A stretch of 64,000 bases of DNA from an uncultured Candidatus Saccharibacteria bacterium. GTDB taxonomy: Bacteria; Patescibacteriota; Minisyncoccia; Phycocordibacterales; Phycocordibacteraceae. Shown here one piece after another: positions 1 through 28,667 of this stretch. The notes below the pieces were generated by a model. It had not been told where the DNA came from. It did no database searches and worked only from the letters and a program-made list of their open reading frames with translations. The position numbers and the translations under genes were made by a program. How positions within the stretch are numbered: the stretch's first letter is position 1; each line of letters begins with the position of its first letter. The stretch covers positions 8,356 to 72,355 of the forward strand of contig CAZYRK010000001.1 in assembly GCA_964650475.1 (NCBI GenBank), in the 5' to 3' direction.

Positions 1-1250
1 ATTAATTTGTTTTCATTGTCATTGAGTGGATATCCAAAATCATCTTTTTTATCATAAGTAATCAATGCGTTTAACTTACTGTCATTTATACCAGTCTTTG
101 TTTTTAAATACTTACTCAAAGACTGATCCACCATATATTCAACAATTTGTCTTGGCGTATAAAAACTACCAGTACGTTTACGCTCACTAATTCCTGACGT
201 TTCGTCAATTTCTGCCAATAGATTCTCAAATATTCGCCCAAGCATCTCAGGGTCAACGGATATCTCCTGGTCAATGACAGTATTTTCATCAATGGTAAAG
301 TTATAGTTTTCAAGTATTCCAAAAAAATCCTTAAACCACTTATCAGATATTTTGAGAGTATTTATATGTTTTGATACTCCAAGCTGTATATCAAGGTCAT
401 AATAATCATCATACTGTGGACTAAATAAACCACCGTTCAAATATGGGACTTTGTCATATAAATCACTTTTAATATGTCGATTATCAATCTCTGTGTTCAA
501 AATCTCAAAAAACAATCTCTCTAGCACTTCATGATAATAACCATTATTTACTGCGCCGGAAGAAAGCAGTTCATCCGGTATGAGTTGCCCTCTATCTGAT
601 TTTTTTTGTTTTAGAAACCAGCAAAACATTATGCGCCCTATTAGCCGGACTGCGAAGTTTTTTCTTATATTCACTTCAGCTCCAGAAGGCATATTGAAGA
701 TATTGTTTCCTTCTGAAACCAGCTCGTCAAAATATTTAGCGATAGATAAATAGAATTGTTTATTTACAACATCCAGGGAGAACCTGTTTTGTAAATCTTC
801 AAAATCTTTAACTATGCCCTTCGCGATAAGAAACTTGGTTGGCGTATGTATTTTTGCGTTTTCTCCCAAGAAAAATGAAAAGCGCCGCGGATTGGAGAAT
901 TCTCTTGTCATTTTACCTTTCTCGTTTAAGACCGGCATCATAGTCATAAGTGACAATCTCCAGTCATTGTCTTTATTTGATTTATATACTATCAATGCAC
1001 GCTTCTCGGAATAATCTTTCATAATTCTAAAACCGTCTGTCGCAAGAGCTATGCGCGGATCGTTAATGGAATTATGCATCACTTCAAAGACGGCGAGTTC
1101 CAACTCGTCATCTCTACCAAGTAAATTTACTTCTTTTATTTCTTTCAGATTTTTTACTCCTACTGGGACTACATCTTTACTGAAATTAGGGAGGAAATTA
1201 TTTAAGAACTCAAGAAAATCACTTCGATTATATTCTTTATCTAATCTCAT
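1..1250 (-). CDS. N6-adenine DNA methyltransferase, Eco57I/type IIG/PglX-like; N-terminal ~416 aa only, the gene runs off the window start
   Basis: My own reverse-strand translation from the ATG at 1250..1248 is open to position 1 with no stop. It is missing from the supplied ORF track, presumably because there is no in-window stop. It reads ...VDPEMLGRIFENLLAEIDETSGISERKRTGSFYTPRQIVEYMVDQSL..., i.e. the LGxxFExxL and GxFYTP motifs of gamma-class N6A MTases. The NPPY motif would lie beyond the window. The start overlaps the upstream helicase stop as ATGA (1247-1250). Confidence 0.7.
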   Translation of the reverse strand, partial: MRLDKEYNRSDFLEFLNNFLPNFSKDVVPVGVKNLKEIKEVNLLGRDDELELAVFEVMHNSINDPRIALATDGFRIMKDYSEKRALIVYKSNKDNDWRLSLMTMMPVLNEKGKMTREFSNPRRFSFFLGENAKIHTPTKFLIAKGIVKDFEDLQNRFSLDVVNKQFYLSIAKYFDELVSEGNNIFNMPSGAEVNIRKNFAVRLIGRIMFCWFLKQKKSDRGQLIPDELLSSGAVNNGYYHEVLERLFFEILNTEIDNRHIKSDLYDKVPYLNGGLFSPQYDDYYDLDIQLGVSKHINTLKISDKWFKDFFGILENYNFTIDENTVIDQEISVDPEMLGRIFENLLAEIDETSGISERKRTGSFYTPRQIVEYMVDQSLSKYLKTKTGINDSKLNALITYDKKDDFGYPLNDNENKL

Positions 1251-4200
1251 AGTCTTATATCTTCACTTAGGACAACTGTCTCGCCCTCATTCTCTTGTTG
1301 CTCTACGCGATTCATTATTGTAGTTATTTGGTGTTCCGGCATGATTTCTCGGAGCTCATTATACGCATCTTCACTGTTGGACATATCTAATCTGATTATC
1401 CTTTTTAAATCTCCTTCATTAACAGCATCATACTTTTTGATAATGTTATGCAAATCCTTACAATATCCTTTCGCTTGAGGTACTGTGGTTTCTATCAGCT
1501 CAATCACGCCAATAGCATCACCGCGCCTACCCAAAGATGGCAAAAGCGGCGGCTTTGCAAATAAAGTGTTTCGCACCAACTTAAACACCTCATCATATTG
1601 AACGTCTGCCTTTGTGCTTTGTTCATCTACTGTTGCCTTAAAATATTCAAGAGCCTCCGCTGCCGAGGTGATGACCGGTAACTGGTCTGTCGCGCGTTTA
1701 ACTGCAAAAATACTATCGACGCCTTTTTTCCCAAAGGCTATTACTGCAGGATTTTCACTGTTTGTGCGTACAATACGACTTCTCGGGAGTATCTGTAGCG
1801 CTTCGTCAAACACTCCCTTATCTTTTTTGGCATTATTATAATCTTCTTTGTACTTCGCATCCCAGGTCTCTTGCTCGGCGTCTTTGTCAGCATCTTCCAA
1901 CTGTTCTTTAAAGAAACTCTCTAGTTTCTCATCATCTGTGAGTGTTTTTGTATCACTGCCTATAACAGCATTTATCAAACGCATTTTCAATGTAGAGATT
2001 TCTTTAATTCGTATATGTTTTTCTCCTATCATCGTAGGAAAACAATTATATATATGCAATTCATCAAATACTCTTTTATTTATTCTGTTTATGCGTCCAA
2101 TTCTTTGGATTACACGTGTTGGGTTGTACGGTATGTCGTAATTGATAATGATGCCAGCTCTATGGAGATTGTAGCCCTCACTAAGAGCATCTGTAGTTAT
2201 TAAGATGTCATAATCATTATTCTGTTCTTTCTCAGGGACACCTGCATCAAAGTCTTTTCGTATTATTACTTTTGCGGATTGTCCTGTATCTTTTGCCGTA
2301 TATTTAAATATCCTTTTTACACCTCGTTTTTCAAGCTCTGCATATAGATAGTTTACTGTATCTGCATAAGTAGAAAATATAATTATTTTTCTTTTCTTAT
2401 TTTCTTTTAGAAATTCTTCCAGCTTATCCTTTACGGTATCTAGTTTCGGGTCAAAATCATTTTGAGGTGGGCAGTCTTTTGCAAACCAATCATCGTATAT
2501 TTCTTTTAAAACTCTTTTGTCTTGACGGACTTTTTCAATAAACTCATCTTTAAACATTTCTTTCTCTATAGCTATAAGACCAGGCGTTGTTTCCAGTTTT
2601 TCTATTTCTTTTTCTGCTAGTTGCTCATCTATACCATCAGAAACCTCATCATCTGTTGTATTAAGCAGAGTATCCGGATCCGGGATTGCTCCTTTTTTCA
2701 TTATTGGAACCTTACCGAGAATATCCCACCACTGTTCAACAATATTTGTTGAATCTAACATTTTTAAAAGAGTGGAACGAAAAGCATCTTTAGAACTCTC
2801 AAAGCGCGCTACAAGAAGCCGGCGCATAAATTTCGCAAGGTTTGTTTGAGCTGTTTGTAGGTCTTTATCATCAAAATATTCACCGTACTCTTTTAAGAAA
2901 TCTTTCCGTTTGTCTTCCTTAATGTATGTTGTTGGTTTATATCGTGCACCTACGAATCCATTCTCTACACCATTTTCAACTAATTTAGATAGAGTTTTAT
3001 TATACAAATCAAACAGATCTCCCAAATCATAGCTAAGCAATTTCGGTGGTTTTACTTCTGAAAAAACAATATTTTGACGTTTAAGATCTTCCGCATACGT
3101 AGTTATCCTTTTTAGATCTAGACGTGAGCGCCGCACAATAACATTTTCAATTAACCGCCTTAATTCACCAGCAATCTCATCTGCTTCTTTATTTATACCT
3201 TCTTTTTCTAGTTTTCCATTTATGCGAGCCGTGTTAAGTTTTTTATAACGGTCTATCAATTCTCTAAAACGTAAGCTGAGGTTATCTACTGAACGTATTG
3301 TTGATGACCCCGGTATTTGAAATAACTTAACAAGCGCAAATATATCCTTAGGATTGTTATTAAATGGCGTGGCGGTAAGTAATACAATTTTATTATCTTT
3401 GTGTGAATTGCATATGTGGTGCAACAATCGATAATCATTTATGTCTTCATTACGATATCGGTGTGCCTCATCTACGATTATAAGAATCGGTTCATTGCTA
3501 TCTTTGTACTTATCATAGACCTCTTGTATCTTGCCGGAACTGTATACACGAGCACCGGGTAGCTTAAATTCCGCCTGATAATCTTCCCACTGTTCTTTAA
3601 GGTGTGGTGGTGCGATTATTATCACTGGTAATCCAACGTTATAAGCTACTGCCGAAGCTATAATACTCTTCCCAAGACCAACAACATCAGCAAGTATGAG
3701 ACCATTGTATTTATTTAATTTATCTATTGCAATTTTTATTGCTTCTGTTTGATACTCCAAGTCAAAGTACTTATTATTAGTTATTTCTCCCGGTGTTTTT
3801 ATTATTCTTTCTTCTTCATATGAGAACAACTCATGCAAAACTCTTACATATACAGCATATGGACTTGGCCGTGCATATACCCAGAGTTTTTCCTTTATAT
3901 TTTTTAAAAATTCATCTTTATTTTCCTTTGTGGCTATTTCTACATTCTCAGCATCAGCCCATTTTTTCTCAAATCTATCTGTATGTCTTTCGTACACTCC
4001 CTCGTCACTAAGTTTTTCATTAACTTCTTCTTGATTCAATAATCCCTGAAATGTAAAGTTACTGGAGCCCATAAATACAAACCCATGGTTATTATTTACA
4101 TCTTTCACTTCTGATTCGTTGTGAAGTATGTACACTTTGCCATGTGCTTTCTTCGACGTGAGCTTTATCTCCAATGTTCCATTAGCAACTTTTTCTTCAA

Positions 4201-4600
4201 GAACTTTATATGCCCCTTGGCTTTCTGTATTGTCAAATAAAGCAGATTGATTACTTAATTCTATAAATCCTTTAACGTATGTTTGCTTCTTTGCGCTATA
4301 TGATGTTTGCCCGGTTCTAGGTTGGTATGGACTAAGATCAACAGTATCGCCCTCTTGTTTAATCCGCGTTAAAAGCCCCGGTATTGCATCAGGGTCTATA
4401 TATGTACCGACAAGGATACGCACTTGTTTATCTTTTAAAGACTCTGCTAGTAGTTGCCACCCTGAAAAATAGAAGAAAGCAACCTCAATATCTACCCTAT
4501 CAGTATTAGATAATGCACTAATAAGCGCACTGCTCATTGTGATCTCATTATTATCTATAATCTTGGCTGAATTATCCATAATTACACCATATAATAACAT
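1247..4600 (-). CDS. PLD-family (single HKD) nuclease domain fused to an SNF2/DEAH-family helicase (1117 aa)
   Basis: N-terminus has an HKD-like motif, AHGKVYILHNE...GSSNFTFQGL. Then Walker A ADVVGLGKS, DEAH box IIVDEAHRY, a TATP motif, and helicase-C motifs TDALSEGYNLH...IQRIGRINRI. It is translationally coupled to the downstream MTase. Confidence 0.8.
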   Translation of the reverse strand: MLLYGVIMDNSAKIIDNNEITMSSALISALSNTDRVDIEVAFFYFSGWQLLAESLKDKQVRILVGTYIDPDAIPGLLTRIKQEGDTVDLSPYQPRTGQTSYSAKKQTYVKGFIELSNQSALFDNTESQGAYKVLEEKVANGTLEIKLTSKKAHGKVYILHNESEVKDVNNNHGFVFMGSSNFTFQGLLNQEEVNEKLSDEGVYERHTDRFEKKWADAENVEIATKENKDEFLKNIKEKLWVYARPSPYAVYVRVLHELFSYEEERIIKTPGEITNNKYFDLEYQTEAIKIAIDKLNKYNGLILADVVGLGKSIIASAVAYNVGLPVIIIAPPHLKEQWEDYQAEFKLPGARVYSSGKIQEVYDKYKDSNEPILIIVDEAHRYRNEDINDYRLLHHICNSHKDNKIVLLTATPFNNNPKDIFALVKLFQIPGSSTIRSVDNLSLRFRELIDRYKKLNTARINGKLEKEGINKEADEIAGELRRLIENVIVRRSRLDLKRITTYAEDLKRQNIVFSEVKPPKLLSYDLGDLFDLYNKTLSKLVENGVENGFVGARYKPTTYIKEDKRKDFLKEYGEYFDDKDLQTAQTNLAKFMRRLLVARFESSKDAFRSTLLKMLDSTNIVEQWWDILGKVPIMKKGAIPDPDTLLNTTDDEVSDGIDEQLAEKEIEKLETTPGLIAIEKEMFKDEFIEKVRQDKRVLKEIYDDWFAKDCPPQNDFDPKLDTVKDKLEEFLKENKKRKIIIFSTYADTVNYLYAELEKRGVKRIFKYTAKDTGQSAKVIIRKDFDAGVPEKEQNNDYDILITTDALSEGYNLHRAGIIINYDIPYNPTRVIQRIGRINRINKRVFDELHIYNCFPTMIGEKHIRIKEISTLKMRLINAVIGSDTKTLTDDEKLESFFKEQLEDADKDAEQETWDAKYKEDYNNAKKDKGVFDEALQILPRSRIVRTNSENPAVIAFGKKGVDSIFAVKRATDQLPVITSAAEALEYFKATVDEQSTKADVQYDEVFKLVRNTLFAKPPLLPSLGRRGDAIGVIELIETTVPQAKGYCKDLHNIIKKYDAVNEGDLKRIIRLDMSNSEDAYNELREIMPEHQITTIMNRVEQQENEGETVVLSEDIRL

Positions 4601-4896
4601 TTTCCTTGTTATTATAATAATTTAATTTTACTTATATAAATTCCATTCTCTATGGAGATTTATCAAAAAAAATTAGTTATTATAACTGATTTACAATATT
4701 TCAGCTTTATTTGTATTCAGTTTTTAAAAAGACATAACTACTACAATGGGTGTAACTAAACATAATTTACACATATTTTATATGTTTTTGCATAACTCAG
4801 AAGTATTTATTTACTTCCAAAACATCTAAATTTTTTTTAGAAACTTGTTAAGGACTCCTTACTTACGTTCGTTACAAACATACTATATATTACTAG

Positions 4897-4935
4897 GCGG
4901 AGTTTTTTGTTAAGAATATTTTTGACCTAAACGTG
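4897..4935. repeat. degenerate third copy of the tRNA-Glu 3'-flank/att-like repeat
   Basis: ggcggagttttttgttaagaatatttttgacctaaacgtgag matches cggagtttttcgttaagaatgtttttgtgaccctacgggg of the 6523-6650 and 6759-6873 repeats at about 34 of 40 positions. Confidence 0.35.
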
Positions 4936-5166
4936 AGACTTGCAGAAAAAGTATCACAAATGGTTAAATTAAAAATTCAATTCAAAATATATAACCTGTT
5001 CTTGCTTGACCTTTTTTTGTTGTTCTTGAACACTTTTATAAAAAGTTTTACAAAATACAATCAGTCCGGCAGCATCTGCAATGCCGCCGGACTGAAAACC
5101 AAACAAATAAGACGCTTTATCAGCTTGGTCTCAAGCTGCTGTTCAGATTAGCGAGCCGTTTGTTAA

Positions 5167-6312
5167 TTATTTAGTTTCTCCTTTTAAGGGCAGAAAATCA
5201 TTCTCATCGAGCGCGCGCATTATTCCACGCAACAGATATCCGTTTGATATTTTAATCATATATTTGCGCGACTTCTTCTTAATTGGGATAATAAGTTTAT
5301 TATTTCTCATACTGCGTAAAAAACGAGATATTTCAGTATGTGCTGTGTTCTCCGGAAACAAATGTTTTATGTCCGACGCTTGAAATTCGGTCTTTTCAAT
5401 CGCAATAACCAACACCTTCTTTTCTTTTTCATTTATCACCTTTCTTTCTTTGGCATATTCAATTGCTTTGTATAAAATATTTTCTTTAAGAAAATTGTAA
5501 TCCGCCAATTTATCAATTTTTGCAATTTCTTTTGATAAACCCTTTAACACATATTCCGACCAAGCAAGCACATCTTCATCTTTACCTGAATCAGCCGTCT
5601 CTAACATGTCATAGTATTTATTTCTATCACTACAAAATACTGCGGTTGGGTTTATAAGTCGTCCTTTTTCCAAATTAAACCCTTGCCTTATAAGCATGGC
5701 GTATGTCAAAGCTCGCACAGTACGACCGTTTCCGTTACCAAACGGGTGTATCCATGCAAAACGATGGTGTACAATCGCTGTTTTTAGCAAATCAAATTGT
5801 GGGTCATTTTTGTTATTTATAAAACCCATAAGTTCTTCCATATAACCCGGCACTTGTAAATGGTCCGGCGGGGTGTATTTAGATTTATTTATTGCCACAT
5901 TATGCGTACGGTATTGACCCGGGGTCGTATCACCCTCACGGGTAAGATTATTTACAATAATCTTTTGTATCTCACGTATGAACATGTGATTTATAGGCAT
6001 TGTTGCGCTATTTTCTTCTACAAAACCCATGACACGTTCATTGTTTTGAATTTCAAGAATACCTTCTGGCGGATTTTTTTCAGGAGTTATTTTACTCTCA
6101 ACATATTCAGCAATTGTTGTTCTGTTACCCTCAATACGCGTTGACCCAATACTTTCAAGTAAATGGAAAATCTCTTTAAGCTGAAAAAAAATGGTAGAAG
6201 GGGTGGTTCCGCCAAGTCGTGAATGTCGCATTCTGTCAAGCTCGAGTATAAGCTTGGTCAATTCTGAGCCAAATTTCGGCTCCGGAAGATGTAATTTATT
6301 ATAAGAAGACAT
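5167..6312 (-). CDS. Fic/DOC family protein (AMPylase-type), class II with an N-terminal inhibitory motif
   Basis: Canonical Fic motif HPFGNGNGRTVRAL. An (S/T)xxxE(G/N) inhibitory-helix motif, STRIEGN, lies in the N-terminal region. The C-terminus looks like a winged helix. Confidence 0.85.
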   Translation of the reverse strand: MSSYNKLHLPEPKFGSELTKLILELDRMRHSRLGGTTPSTIFFQLKEIFHLLESIGSTRIEGNRTTIAEYVESKITPEKNPPEGILEIQNNERVMGFVEENSATMPINHMFIREIQKIIVNNLTREGDTTPGQYRTHNVAINKSKYTPPDHLQVPGYMEELMGFINNKNDPQFDLLKTAIVHHRFAWIHPFGNGNGRTVRALTYAMLIRQGFNLEKGRLINPTAVFCSDRNKYYDMLETADSGKDEDVLAWSEYVLKGLSKEIAKIDKLADYNFLKENILYKAIEYAKERKVINEKEKKVLVIAIEKTEFQASDIKHLFPENTAHTEISRFLRSMRNNKLIIPIKKKSRKYMIKISNGYLLRGIMRALDENDFLPLKGETK

Positions 6313-6522
6313 GTAACAAATCTAAATTAAAGATGTAACATAATACTAGCAAGACCCCTTGTTTTAAGCAATTTTATACACAGTGTATTAAAAATAGATG
6401 TAACATCGCATGTTCACGACAAGTAACAATCGTTCCAAACAAAATGCCCCAAACTGCCTTTTCATTCTCAATCTCAATCCGTTTGTTTGATTGTCTAGTG
6501 TAACAAAACAACACAAAACTAC

Positions 6523-6650
6523 CCTGCCGGCGGTTCGACTCCCACAAACGGTGCGAAGGCACCGTTTTCGTATGCTCACAATATATTCTAAAACGAAAAA
6601 CTCCTGTCGGAGTTTTTCGTTAAGAATGTTTTTGTGACCCTACGGGGATT
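6523..6650. repeat. direct repeat copy A: last 13 nt of tRNA-Glu plus about 115 bp of its 3' flank (attL/attR-like)
   Basis: ccggcggttcgactcccacaaacggtgcgaaggcaccg...gtttttgtgaccctacgggg is near-identical to 6759-6873, with 2 mismatches. It ends with tgaccctacgggg, the reverse complement of the tRNA-Glu 3' terminus. Confidence 0.7.
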
Positions 6651-6758
6651 GATCCTGACGGTCACTAAGCTCGCGAGCTCGCTAAGTGCCGCGGGACACG
6701 CCTCGTCTGTCGCTTTCTTCGCTCAGCCAGCTTCACTTGTAGCGACATGACTCCGGCG

Positions 6759-6873
6759 GTTCGACTCCCACAAACGGTGCGAAGGCACCGTTTTCGTATG
6801 CTCACAATATATTCTAAAACAAAAAACTCCTGACGGAGTTTTTCGTTAAGAATGTTTTTGTGACCCTACGGGG
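6759..6873. repeat. direct repeat copy B: the genuine 3' flank of tRNA-Glu, overlapping the tRNA 3' end
   Basis: Same 115-bp sequence as 6523-6650, continuing into the intact tRNA. Confidence 0.7.
6806..6843 (-). terminator. rho-independent terminator downstream of tRNA-Glu
   Basis: Hairpin aaaaactcc-tgac-ggagttttt followed on the minus strand by TTTTTTGTTTT. It is duplicated inside repeat copy A. Confidence 0.55.
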
Positions 6874-6932
6874 AGTCGAACCCCGATTACCACCGTGAGA
6901 GGGTGATGTCCTAGCCATTAGACGATAGGGCC
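6861..6932 (-). tRNA. tRNA-Glu (anticodon CTC)
   Basis: Hand-folded cloverleaf: acceptor GGCCCTA/TAGGGTC, D-stem GTCT/GGAC, anticodon stem TCACC/GGTGG with loop CTCTCAC (T33, anticodon CTC, A37), T-stem CGGGG/CCCCG with loop TTCGACT. CCA is not encoded. Confidence 0.85.
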
Positions 6933-7136: not shown

Positions 7137-8426
7137 TTACTTCTGTCGCCACTCGCGCTCCTGGCGAACAAGGTTTTTAATATCCGAGGAGTCTGCTAGA
7201 AGTGCTTTTACAATATACTCCGTACGTACACTTTGCGAACCTTTCACAAGGAATACGTCTCCTGCCTGCGCCAGCTGTGTTATCGGCTGTATAGCGTCTT
7301 TGGCGGTATCAAAAGTATATACATTTTCTTTCGAAAGCCCGGCTTCGCGCGCGGAGTCTGCGACTCCGCGCGCGCGCACACCAACAGTGACAACGATATC
7401 CGCAACTTCAGCTACCAGCTTCCCCGCTCGCTGATGCTCTTCCACAGAATAGCGACCAAGCTCTAGCATGTCGCCCAAAATTGCAATCTTACGTTTTGCT
7501 TGTGTAAGAGTACGCAATGTATTGAGTGCTTCATCGACTGCGGAAGGAGAAGCGTTGTACGAATCATCGATAATGCAAGAATTGTTTATTCCACGGAAAA
7601 TTCTACCTCGACCTGGTGGCGGAACATGTCCTTTAAGACCTGAAAAAGCATCTTCAAGAGAAACGTTAAGCGCGCGAGCCACTGCGAGCGCAACAGCAGA
7701 TGGAGCAAGCTGTTGTCTACCTATCGACCCGCGAACCACCAAAGAGTGCGTACCACCATCAATGCAGACATCCGCTTGCATTCCGGCAATATGACCGTCT
7801 TCCATAAAAGTACGGATATTTGAAAGCTTAACATCGGCATCGTTTTCTATGCTGTACGTAATAACGCGCGCCGGTAGGCGCGCGGACATTGTTACTGCAT
7901 ATTTATCATCTGCGGAAACAATGAGCGGTGCTGATGGAGCGAGTGCGTATGCCGGAGCGAACTCTTCGTCACGTACAGACTGCGTTGTCGGATAAGCCTC
8001 AACATGAACAGGAACTTCAGGTAGGCGTGTCACAACAACAACGTCAGGAGTAACGATACGTAAAATATGCTCTAAGTCTCCGGGTCTGTCCGCTCCGACC
8101 TCAAGCACCAACATTTTAGGATAATGGTTTGGCAAAACCAGCACTGCTAGCGCTTCAAAAAAAACTTTTATCCACGCAAACAAATTTCCCCACGGATTTT
8201 TGGAACCGATGATAGTGAGAGGTACTCCAAATTCACTGTTGTAACTTTTCTCACTCTTTCGCAAAAAGAAGCTGTTTGAAAGTGCTGTTGCAATAGCATC
8301 TTTGGTAGAAGTTTTTCCAACACTTCCGGTAACCATAATTATTCGCGGATTGTACTTGCGTATAATTCCACGCGAAAGAACTGCTAAAAATGAAGCGACT
8401 ATACTGCGTCCAAAACTTTTTATCAT
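7137..8426 (-). CDS. murF: UDP-N-acetylmuramoyl-tripeptide--D-alanyl-D-alanine ligase
   Basis: Mur ligase P-loop IIMVTGSVGKTSTKD. It is the last gene of an mraZ-rsmH-ftsL-ftsI-murF cluster. Confidence 0.8.
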   Translation of the reverse strand: MIKSFGRSIVASFLAVLSRGIIRKYNPRIIMVTGSVGKTSTKDAIATALSNSFFLRKSEKSYNSEFGVPLTIIGSKNPWGNLFAWIKVFFEALAVLVLPNHYPKMLVLEVGADRPGDLEHILRIVTPDVVVVTRLPEVPVHVEAYPTTQSVRDEEFAPAYALAPSAPLIVSADDKYAVTMSARLPARVITYSIENDADVKLSNIRTFMEDGHIAGMQADVCIDGGTHSLVVRGSIGRQQLAPSAVALAVARALNVSLEDAFSGLKGHVPPPGRGRIFRGINNSCIIDDSYNASPSAVDEALNTLRTLTQAKRKIAILGDMLELGRYSVEEHQRAGKLVAEVADIVVTVGVRARGVADSAREAGLSKENVYTFDTAKDAIQPITQLAQAGDVFLVKGSQSVRTEYIVKALLADSSDIKNLVRQEREWRQK

Positions 8427-10147
8427 AGTGTGTGTACGGCAACTCCGCGATCAGGCGGTATGTTGTAATAATTTATAAGAAAATGAGTAAGATCCATAAA
8501 ACTCGATGTAAGCGTTTCCGCAGAATACATAACATTCTGGGGGTCATCCGTATACAGAAGAATAATAAACCTAGGAGCGTAACTTGGAAAGAACCCAACA
8601 AAAGAGTGAAAGAAACGGGCTTTATAATACCCTCCTGTAGGTTTCGTAAGCTGTGCTGTGCCGGTCTTAACGGCGACCGACATTGTAGGTATTTTTGCTC
8701 GTCCGTGACTAAGTTCGGTATCCATCAATGCGTCCATCATTGTCGTTGTCTCTTGAGAAGCTTTAGCGGAAAACACTCGTGTCTTGGTACTCCAGTCTGG
8801 ATACTGAAGTTTTCCAGACTGGAGTATTTTATCATGCATTAGGTGTGGATCTACCATTACGCCATTATTTGCCAAGGCACCTAGTGCGCGAATCATTTGC
8901 ATCGGAGTAACGGCAACACCTTGACCGAAAGCGGCTGTGTCATACTCGAGCTGTCGGGTACTCTTTAAATTTCCAATCATTGCTCCGGTTTCGTTTGGTA
9001 GATCAATTCCTGTCGTATGTCCGAAAAGCTTAGTGAAGTACGCGCGCTGTTTACTGTGCCCAAGCTGTGTTGCAACCCACGAAGCTCCGACATTAAGCGA
9101 CTGTACTATTATCTGCTCCATAGGAATAACTCCGCGAGCCTTATAATCCCAATTGCAAATACGGGCTCTGTTTACAACAATACAACCGGTATCGTCGTAG
9201 GTCGATGCGGGGGTTATCACTCCAGCGTCGAGTGCAGATGCCATTGTGAGCGGTTTGAATATGGAACCAAATTCATATATATGTTCAACAAGAGGATTCG
9301 CAAGTATTGAGAGTTTGGTAGAAGAAAAATTATTGGGATCAAACGTCGGCACACTGCCGAGGGCTACAATCTCTCCTGTTGAAGGAATCATTATAATACC
9401 TCCTGTCTCTTTACTGTGATATTTCTTTTGGACTCTCGTAATATCATCCATCAGTCTCTGCTCTACTTCCGGCTCGATTGTAGTTACAATATCGCCCTGT
9501 CTGGAAGCTCCCGCATTTACAAAAACATCACCCAGATTGGAAAACAGTTGTGCAAAAAAGTTTCGATACGTGGCACCGGTACGTTCTAGAGTACTTTCAT
9601 AATACCGTTCGAGACCATATCTTCCACGAAGAGTGGCATCATTGTCGTACGCAACAAAACCGACGGCATGCGCGGCAAGTGTCTTGCCTGGATACACTCT
9701 CCAACGATCTCTCACAACAGATACTCCTGTGATATCTTGCTCTGACAACGCTATTCCTGCTTTCTGTGAAATATGTCGCGCCACTTCTTCATGTGGGTCA
9801 TTCTTTTTTGCAACCAGAGCAAAAAATTTATCACGTTTAATCGGAGTAATTGCATTAATTGCGTTATACGCAACATTCGGTCTTTTTAAACGTTTTGGAT
9901 TAATCACTATAGTAAAACCTGTTTCCAAAGTTGCGGCAGCAATATGTGTTCCGTCTTTACGCGTAAAATAAATAGACCCCCTATCATATAGGGCGCCCAT
10001 ATTTGCGGTGTATTGTTTCTGTGCAATCTCACGATATTCATCACCTCTAATTATTTGTATAAAAAAGAGCTTTCCTACAAGCACTATCGCAACAAGCCCT
10101 AAAAAACCGAGCAGTATGCGGAGTCGAAATCGAAACGTGGCGCGCAT
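8423..10147 (-). CDS. ftsI: penicillin-binding protein / peptidoglycan D,D-transpeptidase (division-type)
   Basis: N-terminal TM segment. SxxK active site GSIFKP, and a KTGT motif as AVKTGTA. Sits in the dcw cluster position. Confidence 0.7.
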   Translation of the reverse strand: MRATFRFRLRILLGFLGLVAIVLVGKLFFIQIIRGDEYREIAQKQYTANMGALYDRGSIYFTRKDGTHIAAATLETGFTIVINPKRLKRPNVAYNAINAITPIKRDKFFALVAKKNDPHEEVARHISQKAGIALSEQDITGVSVVRDRWRVYPGKTLAAHAVGFVAYDNDATLRGRYGLERYYESTLERTGATYRNFFAQLFSNLGDVFVNAGASRQGDIVTTIEPEVEQRLMDDITRVQKKYHSKETGGIIMIPSTGEIVALGSVPTFDPNNFSSTKLSILANPLVEHIYEFGSIFKPLTMASALDAGVITPASTYDDTGCIVVNRARICNWDYKARGVIPMEQIIVQSLNVGASWVATQLGHSKQRAYFTKLFGHTTGIDLPNETGAMIGNLKSTRQLEYDTAAFGQGVAVTPMQMIRALGALANNGVMVDPHLMHDKILQSGKLQYPDWSTKTRVFSAKASQETTTMMDALMDTELSHGRAKIPTMSVAVKTGTAQLTKPTGGYYKARFFHSFVGFFPSYAPRFIILLYTDDPQNVMYSAETLTSSFMDLTHFLINYYNIPPDRGVAVHTL

Positions 10148-10162
10148 ATATATAAAATCAAA

Positions 10163-10477
10163 CTATCTGGTGCGCATTGAAACTGCTGTTTGTGTGTTTG
10201 TTATATAAGCAATACTTGAAGGCTTTTCGAATCCAAGCGATTCAGGTTTTATATCACTAAGCTTTGCAACGGTATCAAAATACTCCGCATCAAGAGTTGC
10301 AACATGTGCGCTTGTGTCTCGAACAGCTTCTGCAGACTGTATCTGTATTACACCGTAAGTCATTACGAAAGATAGGACTCCTATATAGACCACAAGCAAC
10401 ACGCCAACAAGTATTGAAAACGCTCGAACAAATTGAATGTCTGCGATTTTTGCGACTGGATTTGAAAAATTATACAT
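10163..10477 (-). CDS. small single-pass membrane protein, FtsL-like by position
   Basis: 104 aa with one TM helix, between rsmH and ftsI as ftsL is in dcw clusters. No motif-level proof. Confidence 0.4.
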   Translation of the reverse strand: MYNFSNPVAKIADIQFVRAFSILVGVLLVVYIGVLSFVMTYGVIQIQSAEAVRDTSAHVATLDAEYFDTVAKLSDIKPESLGFEKPSSIAYITNTQTAVSMRTR

Positions 10478-11420
10478 AAAGACTTTTAGCTAAATTATTA
10501 ACGGTTTTTTTATAATCTGTAGAGGTAATTCCACAAGCAAACACACGGAGTTTTGCACTTCTTGCACGGCGGTTCTCTTCGAGCTCTTTTGCAGAAGGAA
10601 CTATAGGCTTGCGTGTTACGATAGTTCCCTTGTCTTCATACGCGGCATCGCGAAAAAGATGCTTCACAATCCTGTCTTCTATGCTGTGAAATGTAATAAC
10701 TGCAATGCGTCCGCCGGGACGAGTGCGTTCAATCGCAGAAGTGAGTCCTTCTCGAATGGCGCCGAGCTCATCGTTAACCGCGATACGCAATGCCTGAAAT
10801 GTCCTTGTTGAAGGATGTACACGTCGGTGCTGATACCACGCCGGTGTTGCCATTTCTATTACACGTACTAAATCACCAGTGGTTATGATGTGTTTGTTTT
10901 TTCGTTCACGAACAATCGTGCGAGCTATCTGATACGCAAACCTTTCTTCGCCAAAGTTTCGCAATATATCTGAAAGTTCTTCTTCCGAAGAGCTGTTCAC
11001 AAGCTCAGCTGCAGAATTCGAAGCGTTCTTTCCATACGTCATAAGAAGTGGTTCGTCTTGCTGAAAAGAGAAACCACGCCCTGAAGCAAGCTGAAAACCG
11101 CTCCAACCTAAATCAAAAAGCGACTTATCTATTTTCGATATTTTTAAATCATCCAGTATGCTTGCAAGATTTCTAAAATTGTCTTCAACAAGTTTTATGT
11201 TTGGAGTGTTTCCCAACACGTGCTTTTGCGCGCGTTGTAGAGCGTCTGCATCTGCGTCAATTCCAACCAAAGTTCCGGCACTCCCAAGAAGTGCGAGAAT
11301 CCTTGCAAAATGCCCGGCTCCTCCAACAGTCGCGTCAACTACAGTGTCATCTGCGGAAATCTCAAGCGTTTCAATTGCTTCTTGTGGAAAAACTGTGTCG
11401 TGGCGAGGCTCCATAGGCAT
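10470..11420 (-). CDS. rsmH: 16S rRNA (cytosine1402-N4)-methyltransferase
   Basis: Typical MraW/RsmH N-terminus with a SAM-binding region, DATVGGAGH. Immediately downstream of mraZ. Confidence 0.8.
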   Translation of the reverse strand: MPMEPRHDTVFPQEAIETLEISADDTVVDATVGGAGHFARILALLGSAGTLVGIDADADALQRAQKHVLGNTPNIKLVEDNFRNLASILDDLKISKIDKSLFDLGWSGFQLASGRGFSFQQDEPLLMTYGKNASNSAAELVNSSSEEELSDILRNFGEERFAYQIARTIVRERKNKHIITTGDLVRVIEMATPAWYQHRRVHPSTRTFQALRIAVNDELGAIREGLTSAIERTRPGGRIAVITFHSIEDRIVKHLFRDAAYEDKGTIVTRKPIVPSAKELEENRRARSAKLRVFACGITSTDYKKTVNNLAKSLYV

Positions 11421-11854
11421 TAGGCTTTTTCTTGATTACCTATCTTTTCTGCAAAATTATCCGCATCACGTTCGATATCTTTCGTATATTTTTGCCACGC
11501 CTCTTCGTTCCAAAGCTCTACCCTGTCGTTCACACCTGCCACAACCACTTTTGTACCGAGAGATGCGAAAGCTCGTAAATAGTCCGGAACAAGAACGCGC
11601 CCTGCAGAATCCACACCTGTCTCCCCAGCGCCAGCAAGCATGAGGCGCGCAAGCCCACGACCAGCAGAACTACCCATAGAATGGCGCGCCACGTTTTCCG
11701 CCTGATTCTTCCACGCGGATTTCGGGTACACAAAAAGACAATGATCTAGACCACGCGTAACGATTACCGACCGACCAAGCTCCTTCCGAAACTTTGCCGG
11801 AAGGGATATGCGATTTTTTGCGTCTAGGGTGTGTCGGTATTCTCCAATAAACAT
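11420..11854 (-). CDS. mraZ: transcriptional regulator MraZ
   Basis: About 144 aa. N-terminus MFIGEYRHTLDAKNRISLPAKFR is the typical MraZ duplicated domain. First gene of the dcw cluster. Confidence 0.8.
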   Translation of the reverse strand: MFIGEYRHTLDAKNRISLPAKFRKELGRSVIVTRGLDHCLFVYPKSAWKNQAENVARHSMGSSAGRGLARLMLAGAGETGVDSAGRVLVPDYLRAFASLGTKVVVAGVNDRVELWNEEAWQKYTKDIERDADNFAEKIGNQEKA

Positions 11855-25779: not shown

Positions 25780-25817
25780 TTCATAGCTATATCAATATAC
25801 ATTGATATAGCTATGAA
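25780..25817 (+). promoter_or_regulatory. 17-4-17 inverted-repeat operator overlapping the arsR start codon
   Basis: ttcatagctatatcaat-atac-attgatatagctatgaa has perfect arms. The ATG of the ArsR-family gene lies inside the right arm. Confidence 0.6.
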
Positions 25818-26127
25818 ATGCTTTTACAAGACAAATAAAAATACAAAACAACTTTCTAAAAACTTATTGCTTTTAAAAACACTTTCTGACGAAAACCGAC
25901 TGAAAATAATTTGTTTTTTGAAAACCGGTGAAAAATGTGTTTGTGAGATTGTTGATTTTCTAGAACTTCCACAAAATCTTGTTTCCCATCATTTAAAAAT
26001 CTTAAGGGATCAAAATATCGTTTCTACAAAAAAACAAGGATTGAAAATAATTTACTCGCTGAACACTGCGTGGCTTCCAACCATTATCAAATTCTTTAAT
26101 TCTTTAAACCCTAGATATGTCGACTAA
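25813..26127 (+). CDS. ArsR/SmtB-family transcriptional regulator
   Basis: HTH region CVCEIVDFLELPQNLVSHHLKILRDQNIV. Confidence 0.8.
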   Translation: MKCFYKTNKNTKQLSKNLLLLKTLSDENRLKIICFLKTGEKCVCEIVDFLELPQNLVSHHLKILRDQNIVSTKKQGLKIIYSLNTAWLPTIIKFFNSLNPRYVD

Positions 26128-26374
26128 AACAACAATTAAGGTTCTAGGTTCCGGATGTCCTTCTTGCAAAAAACTCTATACAAAAGTTTTAAAAAACGTA
26201 AAAGAAATAGACCGCGATTTAAACGTTGAGTACATTACCGACATTACAAAAATACTGGAACTTGGTGTTATGAGTAGCCCTGTCTTTATGATAAACGACA
26301 GAATAATATTTGTAGGGAGAATACCCGATGACAAAGAGATAAAAGAAGCTCTTCTTAGCAATCTGAGCACATAA
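26117..26374 (+). CDS. thioredoxin-fold small redox-active protein (CxxC)
   Basis: VLGSGCPSCKKL CxxC, about 85 aa. Typical partner of COG0701 permeases. Confidence 0.7.
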   Translation: MSTKTTIKVLGSGCPSCKKLYTKVLKNVKEIDRDLNVEYITDITKILELGVMSSPVFMINDRIIFVGRIPDDKEIKEALLSNLST

Positions 26375-26379
26375 AACAT

Positions 26380-27351
26380 ATGAGTGTTTTTTATCCATTA
26401 AAAGAGATGGCAGACTATATAACATACAGTCTTCTCTCCCTACAAACAGGCTCACATTTGGCAAATTCCGTACAATTCTTTTTTTATGATTCGCTAAAAA
26501 TAATTATTTTAATTTTAATGATCACTCATTTAATGAGCCTTCTCCGGTATTACTTACCGATTGAAAAGTTACGCGACTTTCTTATAACTCATAATTTTTA
26601 CGGATTAGATTATTTTCTAGCTACAATATTTGGAGCGATTACTCCATTTTGCTCCTGTTCATCTATTCCTTTATTTATTGGTTTTATTGAAGCGGAAATT
26701 CCGCTCGGTGTAACTTTTGCTTTTTTAATAACATCTCCTCTTATCAATGAAATAGCTCTGGCATTATTTATCGGTATGTTTGGAATTAAAATAACTTTTT
26801 TTTACATACTGGCAGGAATAACCATAGGAATGATTGGAGGGTTTGCTATCGGTAAATTACATTTGGAAAGATTTGTGGAAGATTTTGTTTGGAAAACTCA
26901 AATGAATAGACGAGATATTTCTACAAAAAAATTGGCTTTTATCAAAATTTTAAAAATTATATCCAAAGAAGCTTTTAATATAACGAGTAAGATTATCCTT
27001 TATGTTTTAATTGGTGTTGGGCTTGGAGCTTTTATCCACGGATTTGTTCCACAAGGTTTCTTTGAAAAATATCTCCTGGAAGCGGGATGGCTTGGCGTCC
27101 CGCTCGCCGTTATATTGGCTGTACCGCTTTACTCGAACGCAAGCGGAGTTATTCCGATTATTGAATCGTTAGTCTCAAAAGGAGTACCTATCGGAACTGC
27201 GCTATCCCTAATGATGGCTATTGTTGGGATTTCACTACCGGAAGCATTAATACTTAAAAAAATACTTAAGTGGCAACTACTTGCTGTGTTTTTTGGAATA
27301 GTAACGTTTGGGATAATAATAATCGGATACTTGTTTAATATAATTCTTTAA
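26380..27351 (+). CDS. COG0701/DUF318-type permease
   Basis: Polytopic membrane protein with the paired-Cys segment ITPFCSCSSIPLF. In an operon with arsR and the Trx-like gene. Confidence 0.65.
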   Translation: MSVFYPLKEMADYITYSLLSLQTGSHLANSVQFFFYDSLKIIILILMITHLMSLLRYYLPIEKLRDFLITHNFYGLDYFLATIFGAITPFCSCSSIPLFIGFIEAEIPLGVTFAFLITSPLINEIALALFIGMFGIKITFFYILAGITIGMIGGFAIGKLHLERFVEDFVWKTQMNRRDISTKKLAFIKILKIISKEAFNITSKIILYVLIGVGLGAFIHGFVPQGFFEKYLLEAGWLGVPLAVILAVPLYSNASGVIPIIESLVSKGVPIGTALSLMMAIVGISLPEALILKKILKWQLLAVFFGIVTFGIIIIGYLFNIIL

Positions 27352-27436
27352 AAAAGAAGCATGTCTTATACTTATTTAATTTAAAAAACAAAAAACACCC
27401 GTTGCTTTGCTCAGGGTGTTTTTACGATACTTTAAG

Positions 27437-27628
27437 CTAGTTTGTATGTACAAACTTTTTTTCGTATTTAGTTAAGATGTCTTTTTGGTCAGCCGAAGCA
27501 CCGCGCAGGGCTTTTCTATATGCTTTTGCCTTTGTTTTTGCATCGGCTTCAGCAAAAAAAACATACACAGGGCTTTTGTCGCCTTGCGCGGTTTTTGTAA
27601 TTCCGAGATACCTCAATATAGTTTTCAT
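27437..27628 (-). CDS. hypothetical small protein
   Basis: 63-aa ORF next to the RhuM fragment. Confidence 0.3.
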   Translation of the reverse strand: MKTILRYLGITKTAQGDKSPVYVFFAEADAKTKAKAYRKALRGASADQKDILTKYEKKFVHTN

Positions 27629-27703
27629 AAAATCTCCATTAGTTTATCTTTAGAATAGCTTTTCTTTATATACCCGTCAATACTGTATATATTAAAGTTG
27701 AAT

Positions 27704-28204
27704 CTATATGTTATTTATTAGATTTAAATTTTTTAATTTGATTTTCAAAATCAGAGTCAAATCCAGTAATTCTTGAAAGTAATCTTTACCAAAATATTGA
27801 CCGTTTTTTAACCTCTTGTCATCCATTGCAAAACCTTTGATAATATATTCTTTCAAGATTTTACTCGCCCAAATACGAAACTGTGTTGCTCTTTTTGAAT
27901 TTACACGGTAACCAACAGCAATAATTATATTAAGATTATAGTATCTAATCGGTTTATCAGAATGACCAAAGTGCATTTTTTGCACATTGCTTTTTTCTTT
28001 TAATTCATCATTTTCAAAAATATTCTTTATATGTTTTGTAACAACAGACCTGTCAACACCAAAAAGCTCCGATATTCTTTTTTGCGAAAGCCAAATGCTC
28101 TCGTTATGTAAAAACGCCTCCACCCTCACCTCGCCATTCGGGTCGGTATAAAGCAAAAACTCCGTCAACCCGTCTTTGTCTTTACCTGTGATTTTTTTGG
28201 TCAT
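27704..28204 (-). CDS. RhuM-family (virulence/antirepressor-like) protein, N-terminal fragment; probable remnant of an integrated element
   Basis: SELFGVDRSVVTKHIKNIF...YYNLNIIIAVGYRVNSKRATQFRIWASKILKEYIIKGF matches the RhuM family. 166 aa against about 330 for full length. Confidence 0.6.
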   Translation of the reverse strand: MTKKITGKDKDGLTEFLLYTDPNGEVRVEAFLHNESIWLSQKRISELFGVDRSVVTKHIKNIFENDELKEKSNVQKMHFGHSDKPIRYYNLNIIIAVGYRVNSKRATQFRIWASKILKEYIIKGFAMDDKRLKNGQYFGKDYFQELLDLTLILKIKLKNLNLINNI

Positions 28205-28419: not shown

Positions 28420-28535
28420 TGGCTCCGGCTGTAAGCAAAGCTTGCCACCGTTCGTATCCTCAAAAAAGAACATCGCACTCGCGGTATTTCTTTTTGTTCG
28501 GATGCTCCGGCGGTAAGCAGAGCTTTCCACCGCTC
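28420..28535. repeat. two degenerate direct copies of the tRNA-Asn 3' end (att-site remnants)
   Basis: ggctccggctgtaagcaaagcttgccaccg (28420-28450) and gctccggcggtaagcagagctttccaccg (28503-28532) share GCTCCGGCGGTA with the reverse complement of the tRNA-Asn 3' end. Confidence 0.55.
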
Positions 28536-28548
28536 ACCTCGGTGAGCA

Positions 28549-28588
28549 TACAAATACCCGCGACTATCGTCGCGAGTATTTGTATGCT
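28549..28588. repeat. 18-bp inverted repeat hairpin just 3' of tRNA-Asn
   Basis: catacaaatacccgcgac-tatc-gtcgcgagtatttgtatg with 1 mismatch. Confidence 0.5.
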
Positions 28589-28595
28589 ACCTCGG

Positions 28596-28667
28596 CTCCG
28601 GCGGTAGGACTCGAACCTACAACCAATTCGTTAACAGCGAACTGCTCTACCATTGAGCTACACCGGA
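28596..28667 (-). tRNA. tRNA-Asn (anticodon GTT)
   Basis: Hand-folded: acceptor TCCGGTG/CGCCGGA, D-stem GCTC/GAGC, anticodon stem GTTCG/CGAAT with loop CTGTTAA, T-stem GTAGG/CCTAC with loop TTCGAGT, discriminator G. Confidence 0.85.

What the first reader, a model, noticed from the sequence alone, without database searches (positions are those of the whole stretch)
4897..6932. tRNA-Glu(CTC) is a repeatedly used integration site: nested att-like direct repeats delimit the Fic and helicase/MTase island
The last 13 nt of tRNA-Glu plus about 115 bp of its 3' flank, including the flank terminator hairpin, occur twice at 6523-6650 and 6759-6873 with 2 mismatches. A degenerate partial third copy is at 4897-4935. 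This is the scar pattern expected from successive site-specific integrations at a tRNA 3' end. The Fic gene lies between copies, and the helicase/MTase module beyond the oldest copy. No integrase is visible in the window, so it may lie upstream beyond position 1.
Basis: seen in the sequence. Interest (0 to 1): 0.65.

Follow-up and report, generated by a model that had tools for sequence, protein, structure and literature searches.

The report
Stacked mobile islands at tRNA-Glu
In this Kaiserbacteria-like (CPR) genome the 3' end of tRNA-Glu(CTC) is an insertion hot spot carrying a 226-nt gene-less mini-element followed by low-GC defence islands (Fic; helicase/methylase/Dsr1-like), the familiar pattern of islands piling up at a tRNA gene, here with no recombinase gene in sight.

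Summary
The repeat is real. Window 6527-6648 and 6753-6874 are 122-nt direct repeats with 2 mismatches: the last 14 nt of tRNA-Glu (t = TCCCCGTAGGGTCA) plus 108 nt (F). A third fragment at 4898-4924 matches F at 25/27, far above background.

Comparison supports integration rather than local duplication. Two contigs from other samples (L032, L041) carry the identical tRNA-t-F-B, then a tRNA-end fragment and the ancestral neighbours (NUDIX, P-type ATPase). They diverge from the window exactly inside the second t. So F belongs to the inserted element and is not native flank, F-B-t is a 226-nt gene-less mini-element, and the Fic/helicase island is present or absent within one population.

In a sister lineage an 8.2-kb low-GC island with a large serine recombinase abuts the same tRNA. 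It is bounded by a 17-18 nt copy of the tRNA end, and an empty site is also on record.

No recombinase gene, and no homolog of the relatives' serine recombinases, was found among the window's island genes or in 5.6 kb recovered to the left. The outer att copy was not reached.

This is a new member of a known kind: tandem tRNA/tmRNA-targeted islands with recombinase-less members, as at Dehalococcoides ssrA.

The parts
6860..6932 (-). tRNA-Glu(CTC), intact; the integration target
   Evidence: ARAGORN; Rfam RF00005 58 bits. 100% identical in a relative whose MurF is only 67% identical (L009) and in 24 metagenome loci.
6861..6874 (-). t1: last 14 nt of the tRNA (TCCCCGTAGGGTCA); att core copy 1, inside the functional tRNA
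6753..6860 (-). F: 108-nt element-borne arm directly after the tRNA. It carries the tRNA's terminator hairpin, an inverted acceptor-like and T-arm-like motif, and a second hairpin.
   Evidence: Fold z = -6.75. Inverted tRNA T-arm match 6528-6543 / 6754-6769. The native-type flank is found after t* in L032, not here. An F-like first 56 nt heads an unrelated R-M island in L028.
6649..6752 (-). B: 104-nt GC-rich (58%) distal arm of the mini-element. No homolog elsewhere in the window or fetched loci, and no Rfam match.
   Evidence: Identical in L032, and its end is present in L041.
6635..6648 (-). t2: second exact copy of the 14-nt tRNA end. This is the junction where the island-free variants diverge, after GGGT at 6637/6636.
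   Evidence: Contig L004 begins at 6637.
6527..6634 (-). F': second copy of F (2 mismatches); proximal arm of the Fic-bearing island
5163..6405 (-). Fic cassette: promoter/operator region with repeated GTTACAT motifs plus the Fic ORF 5167-6312 (381 aa, SoFic-like)
   Evidence: Pfam Fic 1e-19; PADLOC SoFic 8.6e-50. The same cassette is 72% identical at DNA level in unrelated contexts L039 and L040. Homologs at 55-79% identity occur across phyla.
5061..5095 (-). Intrinsic terminator after Fic
4898..4924 (-). F'': 27-nt fragment of F (25/27), same orientation, between the Fic and helicase modules. Probably a decayed junction of an older insert.
1247..4600 (-). PLD(HKD)-SNF2 helicase, 1117 aa; first gene of a three-gene defence module
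   Evidence: Pfam; PADLOC HKD+Snf2 1.3e-37.
1..1250 (-). 5' part of a 1068-aa type IIG-like N6-adenine methyltransferase. It continues left of the window and is followed by a 1195-aa Dsr1-like protein.
   Evidence: L001 and L034; PADLOC REase_MTase_IIG 3e-184 and Dsr1 3.5e-18.

Best explanation
The 3' end of tRNA-Glu(CTC) (core TCCCCGTAGGGTCA) is an attachment site at which mobile DNA has inserted several times by site-specific recombination, leaving a tandem stack. In tRNA orientation the order is: tRNA-t1 | F-B (a 212-nt gene-less remnant or mini-element) | t2 | F'-spacer-Fic cassette | decayed junction (F'' 4898-4924) | helicase / type IIG-like methylase / Dsr1-like module, continuing past window position 1. 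Each insert supplies a replacement tRNA end plus a terminator (t+F) and pushes the earlier end copy outwards. The 122-nt repeat exists because two successive inserts share the same proximal arm F. The true core is only about 12-14 nt. The islands visible here carry no recombinase, so they are decayed or cis/trans-mobilisable (CIME-like) members. By analogy with relatives, the enzyme is most likely a large serine recombinase encoded elsewhere. Shown: the repeats, the composition shift, the island-free variant with its breakpoint inside t2, and the ancestral synteny. Inferred: the recombination mechanism, the enzyme class, the order of events and the outer boundary.
For: Repeats and their statistics. 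Low GC of 1-6526 and of the 5.6-kb extension (34-36% vs 43-44%). L032 (VAPM010055798) matches window 6934-6637 at 100% (tRNA-t1-F-B-TCCCCGTAGGGT). It then continues with GGTTA-CAAACAGAAACTTTC..., NUDIX and a P-type ATPase. L041, from a different sample, confirms the same B-t*-flank junction. That ATPase is 82-84% identical to the one that directly abuts tRNA-Glu in L018 and L022, which also have murF upstream. The post-t* flank resembles the native flanks of L031, L012 and L016. Contigs from several assemblies break at these junctions; L004 starts at 6637 and L021 ends at 6834. L030 vs L026 are 98.4% identical upstream and 96.4% downstream. L030 carries an 8.17-kb, 35%-GC insert beginning with a 523-aa Resolvase+Recombinase+Zn_ribbon protein on the reverse strand abutting the tRNA, bounded by an 18-nt overlap with the tRNA end. 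Extra exact copies of CCCCGTAGGGTCA lie 210-420 nt downstream in L014, L019 and L033. The cargo is defence-type and occurs in varied mobile or defence-gene contexts elsewhere. The same signature occurs at the window's tRNA-Asn. Published precedent: Dehalococcoides ssrA islands (PMC3146451).
Against: No recombinase gene was found among the island genes, and no homolog of the relatives' serine recombinases in the 64-kb window or the 5.6 kb recovered to the left. No direct outer t copy was found in that extension. Only a weak inverted t/F-like 10-mer sits about 70 nt past the last gene. The full B|t2|F' junction is seen only in the window. The third copy has lost its tRNA-end part. Present/absent variants could differ by homologous recombination rather than by site-specific excision. 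No circular or excised form was observed.
Confidence: 0.68

Rival explanations
1. Exchange by homologous recombination: the low-GC block is a variable flexible island swapped between strains by double crossover in conserved flanks. The t+F repeats are recombination substrates or by-products, not products of a site-specific recombinase.
For: No recombinase is visible. F and F' offer 108 nt of homology. The L032-type could arise from a window-type by recombination between repeated arms. CPR genomes show many such variable regions.
Against: The breakpoint between variants falls inside the 14-nt tRNA-end copy, and the displaced fragment is followed by native-type flank. This is the classic attR signature. 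The same 13-18 nt core recurs at junctions in other lineages, one of them with a recombinase abutting the tRNA.
Confidence: 0.15
2. Local tandem duplication: replication slippage or unequal crossing-over produced 1.5 copies of a 226-nt unit with no foreign DNA involved. The 27-nt third copy is a chance or terminator-related match.
For: The copies are only 104 nt apart and 98% identical. TRF-type periodicity of 226 nt is formally present.
Against: L032 and L041 have tRNA-t-F-B-t without the second F, followed by the ancestral neighbours. The unit F-B-t is therefore an insertion into the tRNA end, not a duplication product. B occurs only once. The third copy scores about 11 sd above background.
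Confidence: 0.05
3. Assembly artefact: two co-existing strains (tRNA-t-F'-Fic... and tRNA-t-F-B-t*-native) were joined into one chimeric path.
For: The complete B|t2|F' junction is seen only in the window. Contigs from five other assemblies all break in this region.
Against: The two hypothetical strains would share only 12 nt at the required join, too little for any k-mer or overlap assembler. L004 starts exactly at the base (6637) where L032 leaves the window path, as expected for a real branch B-t -> {CA-F' | GG-native} in that sample's graph.
Confidence: 0.06
4. F-B is a functional non-coding unit, either a small RNA or tRNA-like gene on the plus strand or a processing/termination module for tRNA-Glu, kept for its own function rather than being a scar.
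For: A similar layout (terminator hairpin, inverted tRNA-3'-end/T-arm motif, second hairpin, about 100 nt, tRNA-end copy) occurs in units of unrelated sequence in L033, L019, L014 and L030. The second hairpin shows three apparent compensatory changes between L030's unit and the adjacent N1 flank (read by eye, not a formal covariation count). On the plus strand the second hairpin is followed by TTTTCG.
Against: No Rfam match at E<=10 and no ARAGORN hit. B folds no better than shuffles (z = -1.6 to -2.7). B is not conserved outside this population. Too few variants exist for a covariation test.
Confidence: 0.06

Closest known systems
Dehalococcoides ssrA-specific genomic islands (ssrA-GIs; McMurdie et al. 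2011, PMC3146451)
   Same: Multiple tandem low-GC islands lie downstream of a small-RNA gene. Each is bounded by a short direct repeat of the gene's 3' end (20 bp there, 12-18 nt here). A roughly 540-aa large serine recombinase sits on the reverse strand next to attL, as in L030 and L025 (523 aa). Many array members lack any integration module and are interpreted as cis-mobilisable elements.
   Different: The target is tRNA-Glu(CTC) in a CPR bacterium, not tmRNA in Chloroflexi. The window's own islands show no recombinase. The cargo is anti-phage defence, not reductive dehalogenases. Here a 108-nt proximal arm is also repeated. No DsiA/ParB/RecF integration module is seen.
Tandem accretion and cis-mobilisable elements (CIMEs) of ICESt1/ICESt3 in Streptococcus thermophilus (Pavlovic et al. 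2004, as cited in PMC3146451; reviewed in PMC5704250)
   Same: att-flanked elements without recombination genes sit in tandem with related elements at one site. Internal deletion leaves att-bounded remnants.
   Different: Those elements use a tyrosine integrase and the 3' end of fda, and the mobilising ICE is known. Here no autonomous partner is identified in the same genome.
tDNA genomic islands as defined by Islander/TIGER (Hudson, Lau and Williams 2015, PMC4383910)
   Same: An intact tRNA lies at one end, regenerated by island sequence, with the displaced 3' tRNA fragment as a direct repeat. Composition is atypical and an empty site exists in relatives.
   Different: According to that paper's abstract, tDNA islands are usually integrated by tyrosine integrases. 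At this site relatives use large serine recombinases, and the window islands have none visible. The identity block reaches only 12-18 nt into the tRNA (acceptor 3' strand and the edge of the T-stem).

Membership tests
tRNA-targeted integrative genomic island (Islander-type tDNA island) | Intact tRNA gene at one boundary, its 3' end regenerated by element sequence | tested here: met
   tRNA-Glu scores 58 bits and is identical to relatives. The sequence after it (F) differs from the native-type flank, which is found after the displaced fragment in L032.
tRNA-targeted integrative genomic island (Islander-type tDNA island) | Displaced 3' tRNA fragment as a direct repeat at the distal boundary | tested here: inconclusive
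   Met for the mini-element F-B (t2 at 6635-6648; t* in L032 and L041). For the Fic/helicase block only the proximal junction (t2) and a decayed internal junction (4898-4924) are seen. The outer end lies beyond the recovered sequence.
tRNA-targeted integrative genomic island (Islander-type tDNA island) | Integrase/recombinase gene inside the island | tested here: not met
   The genes in 1-6526 and in the 5.6-kb extension are Fic, helicase, methylase and a Dsr1-like protein. tblastn with two relatives' serine recombinases finds nothing. Only about 12 kb of an island of unknown length was inspected.
tRNA-targeted integrative genomic island (Islander-type tDNA island) | Island absent from the same site in close relatives (empty site) | tested here: met
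   L032 and L041 lack the Fic/helicase block but are 100% identical over tRNA-F-B. The ancestral order murF-tRNA-Glu-ATPase is seen in L018 and L022.
Cis-mobilisable element / tandem accretion array | Element bounded by att copies but lacking recombination and transfer genes, in tandem with others at one att site | tested here: met
   F-B lies between t1 and t2. The Fic module lies between t2+F' and F'', and neither contains a recombinase.
Cis-mobilisable element / tandem accretion array | A related autonomous element using the same att site and able to mobilise it | tested here: inconclusive
   Recombinase-bearing islands occupy the same tRNA end in L030 and L025, but their arms are unrelated to F and B. 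None was found in this genome's 64 kb.
Large-serine-recombinase islands (DsiB/CcrB-like) | Large serine recombinase (Resolvase + Recombinase + Zn-ribbon) adjacent to attL | tested here: not met
   Present in L030 and in L035-L037. Absent next to the tRNA in the window, where the first 548 nt after the tRNA are non-coding repeats.
Active mobile element | Excised circular form or exact excision product | not testable with these tools
   Raw reads would be needed. The L032/L041 variant is compatible with excision but also with strain divergence.

The most novel reading that the evidence does not exclude
The roughly 200-226-nt gene-less units bounded by tRNA-end copies (F-B here; unrelated-sequence but similarly organised units in L033, L019, L014 and L030; 82-90-nt units at the window's tRNA-Asn) may not be decay products. 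They could be a class of miniature att-bounded elements in CPR bacteria, mobilised in trans by large serine recombinases. Each would carry a replacement tRNA 3' end plus terminator and an inverted copy of the tRNA T-arm/acceptor, and would act as landing pads that add a second att site where defence islands accrete and swap.
Probability: 0.15. Interest if true: 0.55.

Novelty: new member of a known kind. Interest (0 to 1): 0.36.

Why it matters
Mobile elements and defence-gene traffic in CPR/Patescibacteria have been described far less than in cultured bacteria (my impression of the field; the literature searches here, listed no such report among the top-ranked papers, none of which mentions Patescibacteria). 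This locus gives a concrete att core (TCCCCGTAGGGTCA at the tRNA-Glu(CTC) 3' end), a present/absent polymorphism within one population, and related islands with large serine recombinases abutting tRNA genes. This enzyme class is more often associated with protein-coding targets (my own knowledge). Together these provide testable attB/attP candidates and a marker for finding defence islands in Kaiserbacteria-like genomes. Conceptually the locus repeats the accretion model already established for tmRNA and tRNA sites.

Tried and rejected
1. tmRNA, tRNA-like or other known RNA in F-B: Rfam at E<=10 and ARAGORN found only the tRNA.
2. F or the tRNA end in IMG/VR viral contigs: two scans, no hits.
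3. Close relatives in GTDB genomes via MurF: one hit (Ca. Kaiserbacteria SZUA-114), whose contig ends 15 nt after the tRNA, so it is uninformative for the site.
4. Extending the island leftwards: L001 and L034 add 5.6 kb and end about 100 nt after the 1195-aa gene. The 91-kb source contig listed for these proteins could not be retrieved.
5. Small ORFs over the repeats as look-up handles (63 aa, 46 aa): not on record.
6. B as the coding tail of a recombinase, as seen for the tRNA-Asn islands of L035/L037: the frame is not conserved in the L030/L033 units, and nothing supports it for B (reading-frame check by inspection).
7. Serine recombinase homologs in the window or extension: none.
8. Fic as a vertically inherited neighbour, because L011/L023 also have a Fic gene near tRNA-Glu: the two share only 29% identity, so they are independent acquisitions.
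9. A 10-nt match of the window (4871-4880) to L032's native flank, read by eye: it is inverted and not collinear, so I treat it as chance.
10. Inferring assembler k from contig ends: the ends give inconsistent values, so this was not used.
Full report
**What is in the sequence.** The window comes from a Candidatus Kaiserbacteria-like CPR bacterium. The only GTDB relative of its MurF is a Kaiserbacteria MAG at 67% identity. tRNA-Glu(CTC) lies at 6860-6932 on the minus strand. It sits just downstream of the core dcw genes mraZ-mraW-ftsL-PBP-murF at 7137-11854.

To the left of the tRNA, GC drops from 43-44% to 34-36%. This low-GC block holds three genes, all on the minus strand:
- a SoFic-like Fic gene, 5167-6312;
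- a PLD(HKD)-SNF2 helicase, 1247-4600;
- the start of a type IIG-like N6-adenine methyltransferase, 1-1250.

**The repeats.** 6527-6648 (A1) and 6753-6874 (A2) are 122-nt direct repeats with 2 mismatches. Read in the tRNA's orientation, each copy is the last 14 nt of the tRNA (t = TCCCCGTAGGGTCA) followed by a 108-nt segment, F.
- F folds very stably (z = -6.75). It has a 13-bp hairpin plus U-run that would terminate the tRNA transcript, and a second 9-bp hairpin.
- F also carries inverted copies of the tRNA's acceptor 3' strand and T-arm.
- Between the two copies lies B (6649-6752), which is 104 nt, 58% GC and unique.
- A third fragment, 4898-4924, matches the first 27 nt of F at 25/27, in the same orientation, in the gap between the Fic and helicase modules. 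Its local score is 44 against a background maximum of 27 over 2,532 tiles. The adjacent 'degenerate tRNA end' up to 4935 does not align.

**Extending the contig.** Exact-protein look-ups gave contigs from five other assemblies.
- L001 and L034 are 100% identical to window 1-6323 and add 5.6 kb to the left. This holds the rest of the 1068-aa methylase, a 1195-aa protein with a Dsr1-like C-terminal region (PADLOC 3.5e-18, no Pfam hit), a terminator, and the 3' end of a convergent ORF.
- No integrase and no direct tRNA-end copy occur in this stretch.
- tblastn with two relatives' serine recombinases finds nothing in the window or the extension.
- The 91-kb source contig could not be fetched.

**The informative comparison.** A metagenome scan with the tRNA's 3' 45 nt returned 24 loci.

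L032 (VAPM010055798) matches window 6934-6637 at 100%: tRNA, t1, F, B and the first 12 nt of t2. It then diverges. Instead of CA-F'-...-Fic it reads GGTTA-CAAACAGAAACTTTC..., followed by a NUDIX gene and a P-type ATPase. L041, a Logan contig from a different run, confirms the same B-t*-flank junction.

That ATPase is 82-84% identical to the one that directly abuts tRNA-Glu in L018 and L022, which also have murF upstream. The sequence after t* also resembles the immediate tRNA flanks of L031, L012 and L016.

Four conclusions follow:
- The ancestral order is murF - tRNA-Glu - ATPase.
- F-B-t is a 226-nt insertion into the tRNA's 3' end. It regenerated the tRNA and displaced the original end. F is therefore element-borne, not native flank.
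- The Fic/helicase block is present in some members of this population and absent in others, with the breakpoint inside t2 (after GGGT, window 6637/6636).
- Contig L004 from the same assembly as L032 begins exactly at 6637, as expected for a real branch in that sample's graph. This, together with the mere 12 nt shared between contexts, argues against a chimeric join.

**The site in other lineages.** L030 and L026 are near-identical around the tRNA (98.4% upstream, 96.4% downstream). They differ by an 8.17-kb, 35%-GC insert in L030.
- The insert starts with a 523-aa Resolvase+Recombinase+Zn_ribbon protein on the reverse strand, whose last codons read into the tRNA.
- It carries two N6/N4 methylases, one of them fused to LexA.
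- It ends in a 17-18-nt copy of the tRNA end, followed by L026's flank. L025 has the same recombinase.

L014, L019 and L033 have exact second copies of CCCCGTAGGGTCA 210-420 nt downstream. These bound gene-less units whose sequence matches the last ~200 nt of the L030 island. The units have the same layout as F-B: terminator hairpin, inverted tRNA-end motifs, second hairpin, about 100 nt, then t.

L028 starts with an F-like 56 nt and continues into a RadC-Dcm/HpaII/Vsr-like restriction-modification island; the Vsr call is from the sequence alone. L011 and L023 have an unrelated Fic gene (29% identity) 1 kb from the tRNA. The tRNA-Glu(CTC) 3' end is thus a recurrent insertion and variation hot spot in this clade.

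**Related systems.**
- A homolog of the 1195-aa protein (39% identity) rides a 13-kb island with a 544/578-aa large serine recombinase abutting tRNA-Asn. That island sits in a tandem array in which only one member has the recombinase.
- The window's own tRNA-Asn (28594-28667) shows the same signature. Two extra copies of its last 12-13 nt follow, then a truncated RhuM gene and a low-GC ArsR/thioredoxin/ArsP cluster.
- The Fic cassette (6405-5163) occurs at 72% DNA identity in unrelated defence contexts. Its protein has 55-79% relatives across phyla.

**Mechanism.** The best-supported reading is site-specific tandem accretion. Each incoming element recombines at the 12-14-nt core, supplies t plus the terminator arm F, and pushes earlier material outward.

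The order from the tRNA is now:
1. mini-element F-B;
2. t2;
3. the F'-Fic module;
4. a decayed junction (F'');
5. the helicase/methylase/Dsr1-like module.

The visible members have no recombinase, so they are decayed or depend on an enzyme encoded elsewhere. By analogy with L030, L025 and L037 this is most likely a large serine recombinase, but that is inference.

The repeats, the composition shift, the island-free variant and the ancestral synteny are shown. The recombination chemistry, the enzyme, the order of events and the outer boundary are inferred.

Rivals, in decreasing order of weight:
- homologous-recombination exchange, 0.15;
- assembly chimera, 0.06;
- F-B as a functional RNA unit, 0.06;
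- plain local duplication, 0.05.

**Comparison with known systems.** The closest described case is the Dehalococcoides ssrA islands. These are tandem low-GC islands bounded by 20-bp repeats of the tmRNA 3' end, with a ~540-aa serine recombinase on the reverse strand next to attL and 15 members without an integration module, read as cis-mobilisable elements (PMC3146451). The CIME/accretion concept from Streptococcus thermophilus and the Islander definition of tDNA islands (PMC4383910) also fit.

As a member of 'tDNA island', the window block meets three criteria: intact regenerated tRNA, atypical composition, and an empty site in relatives. It fails the integrase criterion in the 12 kb inspected, and its distal repeat was not reached. 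It is best filed as a tandem array of recombinase-less (CIME-like) islands at a tRNA att site.

**Verdict.** Four points need amending: the nature of the 108-nt arm, the existence of the mini-element, the likely recombinase class and position, and the unproven outer boundary. It is a new member of a known kind, of moderate interest mainly because it lies in a CPR lineage and offers concrete att sites.

Noticed in passing
window 28423-28667 and 25813-28204: tRNA-Asn(GTT) (28594-28667, minus strand) is followed by two more copies of its last 12-13 nt (TACCGCCGGAGC at about 28505-28517; TACAGCCGGAGCC at about 28423-28435). Each is preceded by a conserved CGGTGGmAAGCTyTGCT. Then come a truncated RhuM-family gene (27704-28204) and a low-GC (35%) ArsR/thioredoxin/ArsP cluster. 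This looks like a second stacked-insert site in the same window.
   Followed up: partly
L037 807-2501; L035 765-2501 and 814-874, 13851-13911, 18670-18730, 20513-20573: A 13-kb island with a large serine recombinase abuts tRNA-Asn in L037. The recombinase ORF reads across the att junction: 544 aa when next to the tRNA, 578 aa when next to another island's end. L035 has four copies of a ~55-nt conserved island end plus a GGAGCA core, forming a tandem array with one recombinase. The recombinase C-terminus therefore depends on what lies across the att site.
   Followed up: partly
L014 (tRNA end +25..+52) vs L010/L019; L033/L019/L014 unit hairpin vs L030 +8050: A 28-nt palindromic insert (CCGCCCGGATGAATCCGTTCGGACGGGC) is present or absent in the CTGC loops of two different hairpins in closely related contigs. 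It may be a tiny mobile hairpin.
   Followed up: no
L039 1381-1490 and 3025-3140: In an unrelated metagenome contig the homologous Fic cassette (79% protein identity, 72% DNA identity) is flanked by ~110-nt direct repeats and lies next to a RhuM gene. The Fic cassette may travel as a repeat-bounded unit elsewhere too.
   Followed up: no
window 6300-6410 (also L039 1700-1810, L040 1990-2135): Three to four copies of a (T)GTTACAT motif lie upstream of the Fic start codon and are conserved in homologous cassettes. They are probably an operator array.
   Followed up: no
L034 5820-5840 (about 70 nt left of the 1195-aa gene's stop, outside the window): An inverted copy of the t/F junction, GTCACAAAAA (CGT-GTCACAAAAATA vs CGTAGGGTCACAAAAACA), lies inside the 3' end of a convergent ORF. 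This 10-mer otherwise occurs only in A1 and A2 in the 64-kb window (expected 0.44 by chance). It could be an inverted att remnant or chance.
   Followed up: partly
window 6750-6759 (and 6524-6533): The plus-strand CTCCGGCGGT at the B/F junction is identical to the reverse complement of the tRNA-Asn 3' end (ACCGCCGGAG). Its significance is unclear.
   Followed up: no
window 1-4600 plus L001 5074-11857: Three co-directional, overlapping genes: a PLD(HKD)-SNF2 helicase, a type IIG-like methylase that may lack its own nuclease domain (inferred only from the PADLOC match covering residues 412-1066), and a 1195-aa Dsr1-like protein with no Pfam domain. PADLOC matches only candidate or partial systems. 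Homologs of the third gene sit next to other helicases in mobile contexts (L043). This may be an undescribed restriction-like defence module.
   Followed up: partly
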